Shown one piece after another: positions 26,398-57,130 of a stretch of 64,000 nt of DNA (position 1 is the stretch's first letter; every line of letters starts with the position of its first letter). The DNA lies in assembly GCF_988243305.1 (NCBI RefSeq), contig NZ_OZ547136.1; one strand, given 5' to 3'. The translations under genes were made by a program, and so were the position numbers. Below the pieces are notes generated by a model. It was not told the DNA's origin. It saw only the letters and a program-made list of their open reading frames with translations, and ran no database searches.

Positions 26398-29144
<2,747 letters not shown>

Positions 29145-32804: not shown

Positions 32805-32824
32805 AACTGTGATTTTATACAGTA
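32805..32824 (-). promoter_or_regulatory. LexA (SOS) box of yebG
   Basis: Minus strand reads TACTGTATAAAATCACAGTT, a CTGT-N8-ACAG box. Confidence 0.85.
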
Positions 32825-54211: not shown

Positions 54212-54778
54212 ATGCTTGAACTTAATGCTAAAACCACTGCGCTGGTGGTGATTGATTTACAAGAAGGCATCTTACCTTTTGCCGGAGGTCCACATACTGC
54301 CGATGAGGTGGTTAATCGCGCCGGGAAGCTGGCGGCGAAATTTCGCGCGAGCGGTCAGCCCGTGTTTCTGGTGCGCGTTGGCTGGTCTGCCGATTATGCC
54401 GAAGCATTAAAACAGCTGGTTGATGTCCCCTCCCCCGCGAAAGTGTTACCCGAAAACTGGTGGCAACATCCTGCTGCATTAGGTGCAACCGACAGCGATA
54501 TCGAAATCATCAAACGTCAATGGGGTGCGTTTTACGGTACGGATCTGGAGTTGCAACTGCGCCGCCGGGGTATCGATACAATAGTATTATGTGGGATCTC
54601 GACCAATATCGGTGTTGAATCCACCGCCCGCAATGCCTGGGAACTCGGTTTTAATCTGGTGATTGCCGAAGACGCCTGCAGCGCCGCCAGCGCCGAGCAG
54701 CACAATAACAGCATCAACCATATCTACCCACGCATCGCCCGTGTGCGCAGTGTGGAAGAGATCCTCAACGCATTATGA
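54212..54778 (+). CDS. yecD: Isochorismatase-family hydrolase YecD
   Basis: Start at [20 protein letters not shown]... (188 aa). Confidence 0.93.
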
Positions 54779-54885
54779 TTTACATCGGTCTGCCGCAATG
54801 GTCGCATCCTAAATGGGTGCGGTTGGGGATCACCAGCCTTGAAGAGTATGCCCGCCACTTTAACTGCGTGATACGGAATTTTTAA
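54775..54885 (+). pseudogene. yecE: 5' fragment of yecE, interrupted by prophage integration
   Basis: ATG overlaps the yecD stop (ATGA) and encodes [32 protein letters not shown], matching recalled YecE for about 32 codons; the frame then diverges and stops after 4 codons (IRNF*). Confidence 0.8.
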
Positions 54886-54997
54886 AAATCACTAAAGAAC
54901 GCCCAAGAGCATGTTTTTTATTTAGAAGAATCAAAGCGTTGTATTTCCATGTCATATAAAAATCGGCAAAGTTCATATGTAACAAAGTGTCCCAATC

Positions 54998-55046
54998 ATG
55001 CCCCAAAATGCCCCACAACAAATATTTTTGCCCCATGCATGCCCCA
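54998..55046 (+). repeat. Four direct repeats of (A)TGCCCCA in the prophage arm
   Basis: atgcccca at 54998, 55008, 55039 and tgcccca at 55029. Confidence 0.6.
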
Positions 55047-55067: not shown

Positions 55068-55119
55068 TTGACACTGTTTATCCATACAGTTAAAAATGAT
55101 ACTGTATACAAACACAGTG
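55068..55119 (+). promoter_or_regulatory. Promoter with two tandem LexA boxes upstream of the dinI-like gene
   Basis: TTGACA at 55068-55073; CTGT-N8-ACAG boxes at 55072-55091 (cactgtttatccatacagtt) and 55100-55119 (tactgtatacaaacacagtg); RBS agaggg before the ATG. Confidence 0.75.
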
Positions 55120-55132
55120 TAGAGGGACTTTT

Positions 55133-55381
55133 ATGCGTATTGAAATCTGCATAGCCAAAGAAAAAATGACTAAAATGCCAACCGGTGCTGTGGATGCGTT
55201 AAAGGAAGAATTAACTCGGCGCATCAGTAAGCGTTATGACGATGTAGAAGTGATCGTAAAAGCCACCAGCAATGATGGGCTTTCTGTTACACGCACAGCA
55301 GATAAGGATTCTGCAAAAACATTTGTTCAGGAGACTCTGAAAGATACCTGGGAGTCTGCTGACGAGTGGTTTGTTCACTAA
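55133..55381 (+). CDS. DinI-family DNA-damage-inducible protein (prophage-encoded)
   Basis: 82-aa [12 protein letters not shown]...[11 protein letters not shown] resembling E. coli DinI (MRIEVTIAK...TWESADDWFV). Confidence 0.85.
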
Positions 55382-55496: not shown

Positions 55497-55766
55497 TTAC
55501 ATTGTGTCTGGTTCTTCCGGCCACTCAATATCAGGTGCAGTTGATGTATCAACACGGTTCAGCAACACCCGATATTTATTCCATGCCTCCAGCAACGATC
55601 TTTCTTCCTCCGTTGCGATTTCCAGATCTACAGCATCCTGCAGTGGCGCAATATACTCACTGAATTCCTGGATGTAGAACTGTGTGGTGACGGTCTTCCA
55701 GCCATTCGGCTCCTGCTGTATCGAAGCATACCAGGCTATTTCAATATCGCTATGCTGCGGCAGCAT
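55497..55766 (-). pseudogene. Tail fiber assembly protein remnant (C-terminal Tfa domain with unrelated N-terminus)
   Basis: C-terminal about 50 aa ([45 protein letters not shown]) near-identical to the full tfa at 56546-57130; about 150 bp of DNA is a direct repeat of the tfa 3' end. Confidence 0.7.
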
Positions 55767-55822
55767 TTAACCCCTTGTAATTCATCGCCATAATTGATTT
55801 AATTCACAAATAAAACTATAAC

Positions 55823-56491
55823 ATGGTGAAATCAATGAAAAAAAACACAGATGATGGGGCTAAAATTTACACACCACTTACCCTAAAGCTTTATGACTGG
55901 TGGGTTTTGGGAGTATCAAATCGGCTTGCATGGGGATGTCCTACAAAGGAACACCTTCTTCCACACTTTCTGGAACATTTAGGTAACAACCATCTGGATA
56001 TTGGTGTTGGAACTGGGTTTTATCTTACTCACGTACCTGAGAGTAGTCTGATATCTTTAATGGATTTGAACGAAGCTAGCCTGAACGCGGCATCTACAAG
56101 GGCTGGGGAATCAAAAATTAAACATAAAATTAGCCATGATGTTTTTGAACCTTATCCCGCGGCGTTACATGGTCAATTTGATTCCATTTCCATGTTTTAC
56201 CTTCTTCACTGCCTGCCTGGAAATATATCTACAAAAAGCTGTGTAATACGCAATGCGGCGCAGGCCTTAACTGACGATGGAACTCTATACGGAGCCACAA
56301 TTCTTGGCGATGGAGTTGTGCACAATAGCTTCGGTCAAAAACTGATGCGCATTTACAATCAGAAAGGCATCTTTTCAAACACAAAAGATTCCGAAGAAGG
56401 CTTAACACATATACTCTCAGAGCATTTCGAGAATGTTAAAACCAAGGTTCAAGGTACTGTAGTAATGTTTTCCGCTTCAGGGAAAAAATAG
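55823..56491 (+). CDS. Class I SAM-dependent methyltransferase of unknown specificity (prophage moron); start may be the ATG at 55835
   Basis: 222-aa ORF with Rossmann motif I (LDIGVGTGFY), acidic post-I residue (LMDLNE) and motif II-like FDSISMFYLLHCLP; no DNA-methyltransferase motifs (DPPY or PC dipeptide); local composition visibly AT-rich. Confidence 0.8.
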   Translation: MVKSMKKNTDDGAKIYTPLTLKLYDWWVLGVSNRLAWGCPTKEHLLPHFLEHLGNNHLDIGVGTGFYLTHVPESSLISLMDLNEASLNAASTRAGESKIKHKISHDVFEPYPAALHGQFDSISMFYLLHCLPGNISTKSCVIRNAAQALTDDGTLYGATILGDGVVHNSFGQKLMRIYNQKGIFSNTKDSEEGLTHILSEHFENVKTKVQGTVVMFSASGKK

Positions 56492-56499
56492 CATCCAAC

Positions 56500-56535
56500 C
56501 GCAGCACGTTCTTGCTTAAGACGTGCTGCGGCATA
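56500..56535 (-). terminator. Hairpin terminator downstream of tfa
   Basis: Perfect 11-bp stem ccgcagcacgt / acgtgctgcgg with a T-run on the minus strand. Confidence 0.6.
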
Positions 56536-56545
56536 ATCCCAATGA

Positions 56546-57130
56546 TTACTCACTGACAGGGTTCGTAGGCCACTCAATATCAGGTGCAGTTGATGTATCA
56601 ACACGGTTCAGCAACACCCGATACTTCTTCCAGGCTTCCAGCAACGAGTTTTCTTCCTCCGTTGCGATTTCCAGATCTGCAGCATCCTGAAGCGGCGCAA
56701 TATGCTCACTGGCTACCTGCATCAGGTTGTTTTTTGTTTCTTCCGCCTCCCGGATCCGGAACAGTTTTTCTGCTTCCGTATCCTTCACCCAGGCTGTGCC
56801 GTTCCACTTCTGAAACTCCCCTTCCGGCGATAACCAGGTAACATTTTCCGGTAACGGACCGAGTTCAGAAATAAATAACGCGTCGCCGGAAGCCACGTCA
56901 TAAACCGTTTTACCCCGATGGTCTTCAAAGAGATGCCACGATGACTCATCACTGTTGAAAACAGCCACGAAGCCAGCAGGAATATCTGGTGGTGCAATAT
57001 CGGTACTGTTTGCTGGCAGACCTGTATGAGGCGGAATATATGCGTCACCTTCACCAATAAATTCATTAGTTCCGGCCAGCAGATTATAAATTTTTATGGT
57101 CCGTGGTTGTTCACTCATTCTGAATGCCAT
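56546..57130 (-). CDS. tfa: Tail fiber assembly protein Tfa
   Basis: 194-aa ORF overlapping the stf stop by 1 nt; matches lambdoid Tfa. Confidence 0.92.

What the first reader, a model, noticed from the sequence alone, without database searches (positions are those of the whole stretch)
54998..55046. Four direct TGCCCCA repeats in the prophage arm next to the att junction
Four copies of (A)TGCCCCA occur within 50 bp, about 125-175 bp from the chromosome-phage junction and just upstream of the dinI-like promoter. Position and direct orientation fit integrase arm-type binding sites. Alternatively they could be operator sites for an unknown regulator of the dinI-like gene.
Basis: inference. Interest (0 to 1): 0.4.

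Follow-up and report, generated by a model that had tools for sequence, protein, structure and literature searches.

The report
Integrase arm-binding sites at prophage end
The four TGCCCCA repeats are real and are almost certainly docking ("arm-type") sites for the prophage's integrase. The mechanism is the textbook lambda kind, but this motif and its fixed layout are shared by a whole integrase family that includes the major Shiga-toxin phages.

Summary
TGCCCCA occurs at 54999, 55009, 55029 and 55040 (+). Spacings are 11, 10, 20 and 11 bp. The chance of such a cluster anywhere in the window is about 1e-7.

The window holds the integrase-distal junction of a lambdoid prophage inserted in yecE. 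The core is TTAACTGYGTG at 54860-54870. Close relatives (PhiR49_2, an E. coli genome) carry at the other end a 437-aa tyrosine integrase with an N-terminal Arm-DNA-bind_2 domain, plus a second TGTCCCA-N4-TGCCCCA pair in the same orientation.

I examined 11 non-redundant attP sites of this integrase family (yecE, wrbA, yehV and ttcA targets; Escherichia, Klebsiella, Salmonella, Yersinia, Aeromonas phages).
- TGCCCC(A/T) is the top repeated 7-mer in most of them.
- All 56 clustered copies lie on the integrase-sense strand.
- Each attP has an 11-bp-spaced pair in the int-proximal arm. Most also have one in the distal arm, with the two arms about 196-200 bp apart.

The repeats follow the integrase, not dinI. 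They are present where no dinI is adjacent and absent from the same dinI module next to an unrelated integrase.

Verdict: arm-type integrase sites, a new member of a known kind. Binding itself is untested.

The parts
54778..54870 (+). 5' remnant of yecE (the chromosomal half of the attachment site), cut by the prophage insertion
   Evidence: Identical to K-12 yecE up to 54870, then divergent. The 3' part of yecE follows the integrase at the other prophage end in relatives.
54860..54870 (+). Core identity between attP and attB, TTAACTG(C/T)GTG. The probable 7-bp overlap is TTAACTG (54860-54866).
   Evidence: The same sequence is present at the int-side junctions of relatives...CCCGTCATG TTAACTG(C/T)GTG GAGGGCAAC. 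In six diverged attPs the core is flanked by an invariant TCA-N11-TGA inverted repeat whose central 7 bp here are TTAACTG. The overlap assignment is an inference.
54867..54875 (+). Candidate core-type integrase half-site (C'-like, CGTGATACG, contains the invariant TGA)
   Evidence: TGA is invariant at this aligned position and mirrors an invariant TCA on the int side of the core in the aligned attPs. Inference.
54880..54912 (+). Strongly conserved block TTTTAAAAATCACTAAAGAACGCCCAAGAGCAT next to the core. Candidate site for the excisionase (DUF1233) or another accessory factor.
   Evidence: Near-invariant in attPs with different cores: PhiR49_2, CharmingMan, YYZ-2008, VT2-Sakai, RCIP0034, SaltyDalty, Fraca, Fels-1, P-EibC. 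I did not see it in Rac, PHB10, Yersinia or Aeromonas members. Function not tested.
54929..54941 (+). Match to the IHF consensus WATCAANNNNTTR (AATCAAAGCGTTG). Weak candidate bending site.
   Evidence: Read directly from the sequence. It is not conserved at the aligned position in relatives, so support is low.
54988..54994 (+). Arm-type site P-a (TGTCCCA), first half of the conserved 11-bp-spaced pair
   Evidence: It aligns with TG(C/T)CCCA in all six aligned attPs.
54999..55005 (+). Arm-type site P-b (TGCCCCA), second half of the conserved pair
55009..55015 (+). Arm-type site P-c (TGCCCCA), a lineage-specific extra site 10 bp after P-b
   Evidence: Present in PhiR49_2 and P-EibC, absent in CharmingMan. 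YYZ-2008 has a third site 11 bp after its pair.
55029..55035 (+). Arm-type site P-d (TGCCCCA), first half of a second pair
   Evidence: A second 11-bp pair also occurs in VT2-Sakai, CharmingMan and Fels-1. P-EibC has TGTCCCA here.
55040..55046 (+). Arm-type site P-e (TGCCCCA), second half of the second pair
55068..55381 (+). Neighbouring but separate module: SOS-type promoter (TTGACA at 55068; LexA boxes at 55074-55089 and 55102-55117) and the dinI-like gene (55133-55381)
   Evidence: (Pfam DinI, 1e-19). The module boundary with other phages is at about 55064.

Best explanation
The five TG(C/T)CCCA repeats at 54988-55046 are arm-type binding sites in the integrase-distal (P) arm of the prophage attachment site. 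This junction is the equivalent of lambda attR.

The proposed mechanism is as follows. The prophage's tyrosine integrase is heterobivalent. Its C-terminal domains bind and cut the core in yecE (TTAACTGYGTG). Its small N-terminal AP2-like domain binds TGCCCCA. Integrase molecules bridge arm and core, helped by DNA-bending and accessory proteins (IHF, the DUF1233 excisionase), and fold attP, or attL plus attR, into the recombinogenic complex.

Sites come as direct pairs 11 bp apart, so two N-domains would sit side by side on one face of the helix. A second pair lies in the int-proximal (P') arm about 70-85 bp from the core.

Shown here: the sites, their geometry, their conservation, their linkage to the integrase family, and the presence and fold of the arm-binding domain. 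Inferred: actual binding, which sites serve integration versus excision, and the roles of IHF and Xis.
For: 1. Position. The repeats lie in phage DNA at +125 to +183 from the centre of the core. Lambda's P1 and P2 lie at -144 to -102 (sequence read against the textbook arm-site consensus).

2. Both arms. PhiR49_2 has a 96% identical arm. Near its integrase 3' end it has TGTCCCAATGATGCCCCA, against TGTCCCAATCATGCCCCA in the window, in the same orientation.

3. Cognate protein. The integrase of PhiR49_2 is 437 aa with Pfam Arm-DNA-bind_2 (9.8e-24, full length) plus Phage_integrase. A 437-aa integrase also sits at the yecE-distal end of the prophage in the closest genome hit.

5. Family-wide conservation. 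In 11 non-redundant attPs with different cores and hosts there are 56 clustered sites, all on the int-sense strand and none on the other. The consensus is T54 G55 C50 C56 C56 C56 A48 (out of 56). Every P' arm has an 11-bp pair. The P' to P distance is 195-200 bp in eight attPs and 179-192 bp in three attPs joined from prophage ends. TGCCCCA (TGCCCCT in PHB10) tops or ties for top among repeated 7-mers in eight attPs. In Rac and Aeromonas the top 7-mer is an overlapping fragment of the site.

6. Footprint. 26 of 28 site columns are invariant against 45 of 266 other columns (Fisher p = 4e-16). Pairwise identity outside the sites is 42-72%.

7. The sites are non-coding in the P arm. In Rac and PHB10 the P' pair is also non-coding, lying after the stop codon.

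8. Independence from dinI.
Against: - No binding or mutational data exist for this motif. Literature searches found nothing.
- The window does not contain the integrase end of this prophage. The integrase and the P' pair are inferred from relatives whose arm region is 96-98.5% identical.
- The excisionase (DUF1233) co-occurs with this integrase family in six of the seven further relatives tested, so linkage alone does not separate Int from Xis as the binder.
- In most members the P' copies lie inside the integrase reading frame, in the same frame by my reading of several sequences, encoding (V/A)P-x-(M/V)P(H/Q). Coding constraint could contribute there.
- The alignments used for the footprint are partly anchored by the motif itself.
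Confidence: 0.85

Rival explanations
1. The repeats are binding sites for the excisionase (the DUF1233 recombination directionality factor) rather than for the integrase. Tandem direct repeats in the P arm are what lambda Xis uses (X1, X1.5, X2).
For: The repeats are direct, helically phased, and sit in the int-distal arm. A DUF1233 excisionase accompanies the integrase in PhiR49_2 and in six of the seven further relatives tested.
Against: The same motif forms a pair in the int-proximal arm of every attP examined. Known Xis/RDF sites are confined to one arm (established knowledge of lambda, HK022 and L5). The Aeromonas phage keeps the motif, but its excisionase gives no DUF1233 hit. An integrase with an arm-binding domain needs arm sites, and no other repeated motif is shared by both arms. 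The conserved block at 54880-54912 is a better candidate for Xis.
Confidence: 0.07
2. The repeats are operators or activator sites for a regulator of the adjacent SOS-controlled dinI-like gene.
For: The last repeat ends 21 bp upstream of the -35 hexamer. In YYZ-2008 the repeats also abut a dinI promoter.
Against: The dinI module shared with many phages starts at about 55064 and excludes the repeats. mEp460 has the same promoter and LexA boxes directly after an unrelated integrase gene, with no repeats. VT2-Sakai/phi315, RCIP0034, Rac, PHB10 and pAEv1818 have the repeats without a dinI annotated next to them. By my reading of the sequences, the distance from the last repeat to the dinI -35 varies from about 17 bp to more than 100 bp. 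Regulation is already accounted for by two LexA boxes.
Confidence: 0.02
3. The repeats are a chance or low-complexity feature, or a remnant of slippage or duplication, with no function.
For: The arm is AT-rich (36.5% GC) and the repeats are short.
Against: The cluster probability is about 1e-7 in the window, and no simulation produced more than 2 copies in 60 bp. There is invariant conservation at aligned positions in arms that are otherwise 42-72% identical. Strand, 11-bp pairing and the roughly 197-bp inter-arm distance are conserved across five genera.
Confidence: 0.01

Closest known systems
Phage lambda attP arm-type sites (P1, P2, P'1-P'3) bound by the N-terminal domain of lambda Int
   Same: - A heterobivalent tyrosine integrase with a small N-terminal three-strand-plus-helix domain.
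- Arm sites on both sides of the core, with the int-proximal sites tandem at 10-11 bp spacing and abutting or overlapping the integrase 3' end.
- Distal sites more than 100 bp from the core: lambda P'1-3 at +53 to +84 and P1/P2 at -144 to -102; here the P' pair at about -85 to -68 and the P sites at +125 to +183.
- The excisionase gene lies next to int.
   Different: - The motif is unrelated (TGCCCCA against lambda's C/AAGTCACTAT).
- The arm-binding domain belongs to a different Pfam family (PF12167), and no lambda N-domain match was found by sequence.
- All sites are direct repeats on one strand, whereas lambda P2 is inverted relative to P1 and the P' sites (sequence).
- The distal arm carries 2-5 sites organised as 11-bp pairs, rather than two separated single sites.
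Mycobacteriophage L5 attP arm-type sites (P1-P7, used as pairs P1/P2, P4/P5, P6/P7). From my own knowledge of the Hatfull laboratory's work; not checked here.
   Same: Arm-type sites are organised as adjacent pairs on both arms, with more sites than any one reaction needs.
   Different: Different integrase subfamily, motif, host factor (mIHF) and host phylum. No sequence relationship was tested here.
Integration modules of Stx phages 933W/VT2-Sakai (wrbA), VT1-Sakai/YYZ-2008/BP-4795 (yehV), Salmonella Fels-1 and the E. coli K-12 Rac prophage (IntR/XisR)
   Same: - Same integrase family: 68-76% identity for the Stx phage integrases and 44% for the Rac-like PHB10. N-domain identity is 73-90%, and 35-39% for Rac, PHB10 and Aeromonas.
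- Same DUF1233 excisionase.
- Same TGCCCC(A/T) pairs and inter-arm spacing.
   Different: - Different core sequences and chromosomal targets.
- The number of distal sites varies from 2 to 5.
- Rac and PHB10 use TGCCCCT more than TGCCCCA, place the P' pair after the stop codon, and lack the conserved block next to the core.

Membership tests
Arm-type integrase-binding sites of a lambda-type (heterobivalent tyrosine recombinase) attP | The sites lie in phage-derived DNA flanking the core, outside the core-type sites, within about 200 bp of the crossover. | tested here: met
   The junction is at 54870/54871 by comparison with K-12 yecE. The sites lie at +125 to +183 from the overlap centre.
Arm-type integrase-binding sites of a lambda-type (heterobivalent tyrosine recombinase) attP | The same motif is present in both arms (P and P') of attP. 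| tested here: met
   Met in PhiR49_2 (arm 96% identical to the window) and in all 11 non-redundant attPs. It cannot be checked for this very prophage, because its integrase end lies outside the window.
Arm-type integrase-binding sites of a lambda-type (heterobivalent tyrosine recombinase) attP | The motif differs from the core-type sites. | tested here: met
   The core is flanked by a TCA-N11-TGA inverted repeat (GTCAT...GTGAT), which is unrelated to TGCCCCA.
Arm-type integrase-binding sites of a lambda-type (heterobivalent tyrosine recombinase) attP | The cognate integrase has a separate N-terminal arm-binding domain. | tested here: met
Arm-type integrase-binding sites of a lambda-type (heterobivalent tyrosine recombinase) attP | The motif follows the integrase family rather than neighbouring cargo genes or the core sequence. 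| tested here: met
   It is present with at least five different cores and with or without dinI. It is absent from the same dinI module next to an Rci-like integrase.
Arm-type integrase-binding sites of a lambda-type (heterobivalent tyrosine recombinase) attP | The integrase N-domain binds the sites directly, and the sites are required for recombination. | not testable with these tools
   This needs EMSA or footprinting and att-site mutagenesis. No published data were found.
Excisionase (RDF) binding sites | Tandem sites confined to one arm, the arm that is bent for excision. | tested here: not met
   The motif occurs as pairs in both arms in every attP examined.
LexA/SOS operator or other operator of the dinI-like gene | The sites belong to, and travel with, the dinI promoter module and match a known operator consensus. 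| tested here: not met
   The LexA boxes (CTGT-N8-ACAG) are at 55074-55089 and 55102-55117, not in the repeats. The module boundary is at about 55064. mEp460 lacks the repeats.

The most novel reading that the evidence does not exclude
The arm motif (TGCCCCA), its pairing and the roughly 197-bp inter-arm distance are the same for integrases with different core specificities, and their N-domains are 73-90% identical. The arm-binding layer may therefore be a shared, interchangeable 'code'. In polylysogens that carry several prophages of this family (for example O157 strains with Stx prophages at wrbA and yehV, plus yecE or Rac-type elements), the integrase of one prophage would occupy the arms of another. 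That could give trans effects on excision and integration through titration, mixed complexes, or rescue of int-defective prophages. The site abutting the SOS-controlled dinI promoter could also link complex assembly to dinI transcription.
Probability: 0.25. Interest if true: 0.55.

Novelty: new member of a known kind. Interest (0 to 1): 0.35.

Why it matters
Arm-type sites are textbook for lambda but have been mapped for only a handful of integrases. This analysis gives a concrete, testable arm-site consensus (TGCCCC[A/T]) and a layout for the integrase family used by clinically important Shiga-toxin phages (933W/VT2-Sakai, VT1-Sakai/YYZ-2008), as well as Fels-1, Rac and many E. coli, Klebsiella, Yersinia and Aeromonas phages. 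The layout is 11-bp pairs on one strand, with about 197 bp between the arms.

That could help in three ways:
- defining prophage ends and minimal attP sites;
- predicting which decayed prophages can still excise;
- designing experiments on cross-talk between co-resident prophages.

For this window the result is otherwise ordinary: a normal lambdoid prophage junction in yecE.

Tried and rejected
- An IMG/VR scan with the integrase returned only 95-100% identical copies, most cut at the integrase stop. It was useful only for the int-side junction sequences.
- I first thought the P' copies sat in different reading frames in different phages, which would prove DNA-level selection. On re-reading several sequences, they share a frame and encode a loosely conserved peptide, so I dropped that argument. 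I rely instead on the non-coding P-arm copies and the non-coding P' pairs of Rac and PHB10.
- The IHF consensus match at 54929-54941 is not conserved in relatives, so I keep it only as a weak candidate.
- Seven literature calls (26, 27, 50, 59, 60 and the two papers read in 61, 62) found no description of this motif. The Phi24B att-site paper defines only a minimal attP length and did not address this motif. I did not test whether the Phi24B integrase belongs to this family.
- The GenBank 'int 4' binding feature of lambda does not coincide with the P'1-P'3 consensus sequence. I therefore located those sites from the sequence itself.
- For Fels-1, Rac and Yersinia I joined prophage ends by hand. 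Their inter-arm distances (179-192 bp) may be off by the length of the duplicated core. The five contiguous attPs give 196-198 bp.

Full report
**1. The observation**

The + strand carries exact TGCCCCA at 54999, 55009, 55029 and 55040.
- The window as a whole is not enriched for the heptamer (10 matches, 9.3 expected). The other six matches are isolated.
- The cluster is far beyond chance. P(>=4 copies in 48 bp) is about 6e-13, or about 8e-8 over all positions and both strands. In 300 first-order Markov simulations, no 60-bp stretch held more than 2 copies.
- A fifth copy with one mismatch, TGTCCCA, starts at 54988. The spacings are 11, 10, 20 and 11 bp, which puts the sites on roughly one face of the helix.

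**2. Where the cluster sits**

- To the left of the repeats are nudB, aspS, yecD and the first 93 nt of yecE.
- K-12 yecE is identical up to ...TTAACTGCGTG (54870) and then diverges. Phage DNA therefore starts at 54871.
- To the right are a dinI-like gene (55133-55381; Pfam DinI, 1e-19), a tail-fibre assembly gene and a tail fibre.
- The dinI promoter is TTGACA at 55068. It has two LexA boxes, at 55074-55089 and 55102-55117.
- This is therefore the integrase-distal end of a lambdoid prophage, the equivalent of lambda attR, which carries the P arm.
- A place covering at least 80% of the query across this junction is found in 234 of 5,426 complete E. coli genomes.

**3. The other end and the integrase**

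The window stops inside the tail genes, so I used close relatives.
- Phage PhiR49_2 has a 96% identical arm. Its record is a prophage-ordered genome. At the other end it has a DUF1233 excisionase and a 437-aa integrase with Pfam Arm-DNA-bind_2 (9.8e-24, full-length match) plus Phage_integrase.
- The closest genome hit (98.5% identity) has a 437-aa integrase next to the 3' part of yecE.
- Int-side junctions read ...CCCGTCATG TTAACTG(C/T)GTG GAGGGCAAC... and run into yecE. This defines the core.
- Inside the integrase 3' end of PhiR49_2 lies TGTCCCAATGATGCCCCA, in the same orientation as TGTCCCAATCATGCCCCA in the window. The motif is therefore present in both arms.

**4. Relatives with other specificities**

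I reconstructed or read the attP of integrase relatives.

| attP | Target or host |
|---|---|
| VT2-Sakai and phi315 | wrbA |
| YYZ-2008 | next to yehV |
| CharmingMan, SaltyDalty, Fraca | E. coli phages |
| Klebsiella RCIP0034 | Klebsiella |
| Aeromonas pAEv1818 | Aeromonas |
| Rac | ttcA (E. coli K-12) |
| PHB10 | Rac-like phage |
| Fels-1 and Yersinia vB_YenM_29.18 | Salmonella, Yersinia |
| P-EibC | yecE, arm 81% identical |

- An unbiased 7-mer count puts TGCCCCA (TGCCCCT in PHB10) top or tied for top in eight attPs. In Rac and Aeromonas the top 7-mer is an overlapping fragment of the site.
- In 11 non-redundant attPs there are 56 clustered sites. All are on the int-sense strand and none on the other. 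The consensus is T54 G55 C50 C56 C56 C56 A48, out of 56.
- Each attP has a pair 11 bp apart in the int-proximal arm. Most have at least one such pair in the distal arm. PHB10's distal sites are spaced 19 and 12 bp, and Fels-1's first pair 10 bp.
- The distance from the proximal pair to the first distal site is 196-198 bp in the five contiguous attPs and 195-200 bp in eight of the eleven. Three attPs I joined by hand give 179-192 bp.
- In an alignment of six diverged attPs, 26 of 28 site columns are invariant against 45 of 266 other columns (Fisher p = 4e-16). Identity outside the sites is 42-72%. The motif helps anchor that alignment, so the test is somewhat favourable to the hypothesis.

**5. 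Integrase or dinI?**

- Homology with dinI modules of phages that carry other integrases starts at about 55064, just past the repeats.
- mEp460 has the same promoter and LexA boxes directly after an Rci-like integrase gene, with no repeats.
- VT2-Sakai/phi315, RCIP0034, Rac, PHB10 and pAEv1818 have the repeats with no dinI annotated next to them.
- The repeats belong to the integration module.

**6. Integrase or excisionase?**

- All tested relatives but the Aeromonas phage have a DUF1233 excisionase, so linkage alone does not decide.
- The motif is in both arms, whereas known excisionase sites sit in one arm only (established knowledge of lambda and its relatives).
- An integrase with an arm-binding domain needs arm sites, and this is the only repeated motif the two arms share.
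- A separate, strongly conserved block next to the core (54880-54912) is a better candidate for the excisionase or another accessory protein.

**7. The protein domain**

- The N-terminal 70 residues are the best conserved part of my alignment. Identity to the PhiR49_2 integrase is 73-90% among the E. coli and Klebsiella members, and 35-39% for Rac, PHB10 and Aeromonas.
- The model (pLDDT 82) has three strands followed by a helix.
- The scores are modest, as expected for a domain of about 55 residues, and unrelated proteins such as RPL22 and Mur ligases score similarly. Even so, the DNA-binding hits form one recognised fold group.
- By sequence alone no solved N-domain is found.

**8. Mechanism**

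- Shown: site positions, orientation, pairing, conservation, linkage to the integrase family, and the presence and fold of the arm-binding domain.
- Inferred: integrase N-domains bind TGCCCCA pairs side by side. The same integrase molecules reach the core-type sites (TCA-N11-TGA around the probable TTAACTG overlap). Bending and accessory proteins shape the complex, and different subsets of the five distal sites serve integration and excision, as in lambda and L5.
- The lambda geometry is similar: P'1-3 at +53 to +84 and P1/P2 at -144 to -102. But lambda's P2 is inverted, whereas here all sites are direct.

**9. Novelty**

The kind of element is textbook. Within the searchable literature I found no description of this motif or layout for this integrase family. 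I cannot exclude papers outside that library. I rate it a new member of a known kind, of moderate interest to phage biologists, because the family includes the main Stx phages, Fels-1 and Rac.

**10. Caveats**

- There are no binding data.
- The P' arm of this particular prophage was not seen.
- The P' copies in most members are inside the integrase coding frame.
- The hand-joined attPs have uncertain core length.

Noticed in passing
window 54880-54912: A block next to the core, TTTTAAAAATCACTAAAGAACGCCCAAGAGCAT, is nearly invariant among attPs with different cores (E. coli, Klebsiella and Salmonella members). I did not see it in Rac, PHB10, Yersinia or Aeromonas members. In several members it reads as two ATCG-containing half-repeats 10 bp apart. 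It is a candidate site for the excisionase or another accessory protein.
   Followed up: partly
L094, L095, L096, L099, L093 (contiguous attPs); reconstructed attPs of L001, L006/L007, L008/L009: The distance from the int-proximal site pair to the first distal site is nearly constant: 196-198 bp in the five contiguous attPs and 195-200 bp in eight of eleven. The core sequences between them differ. This implies a fixed loop geometry.
   Followed up: partly
window 54867; L015, L023, L024, L025, L086 around 2835-2845: The core has a C/T polymorphism (TTAACTG[C/T]GTG) directly after the probable 7-bp overlap. The window's junction has C. Int-side junctions of relatives have either base. The cores of family members are flanked by an invariant TCA-N11-TGA inverted repeat.
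   Followed up: partly
window 55068-55117: The dinI-like promoter has two full LexA boxes (CTGT-N8-ACAG), one in the spacer and one over the likely start site. The whole dinI module is a cassette shared by many lambdoid phages with unrelated integrases, with a sharp boundary at about 55064.
   Followed up: partly
window 55497-57130: An 89-aa C-terminal fragment of a tail-fibre assembly protein (55497-55766, - strand) duplicates the end of the full gene (56546-57130, - strand). Between them lies a 222-aa SAM-methyltransferase-like ORF on the other strand (55823-56491). This looks like a cargo gene inserted by recombination between tfa copies.
   Followed up: partly
L101 9124-9894 (NZ_CP145636.1): In the closest genome the annotation pipeline calls a 256-aa yecE that starts inside the integrase 3' end, 19 nt before the integrase stop. 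By my reading of the homologous junction sequence, the implied start codon is ATT. The insertion removes the first ~31 codons of yecE and replaces them with phage-derived codons. Whether this fusion is expressed is unknown.
   Followed up: no
L092 2830-3100 (Stx2_499, prophage-in-prophage junction): The distal arm of this relative is decayed: only one intact TGTCCCA remains, the other copies are degenerate, and dinI is a remnant. The int-proximal pair is intact. This may mark an arm that no longer supports excision.
   Followed up: no
L106 (lambda NC_001416.1 27814-27854): The GenBank 'int 4' binding feature of lambda does not coincide with the P'1-P'3 consensus sequences, which I located by eye in the sequence at about 27784-27815.
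   Followed up: no
window 32807-32822: The only other perfect CTGT-N8-ACAG match in the window, possibly the SOS box of a chromosomal gene in the ruv region.
   Followed up: no
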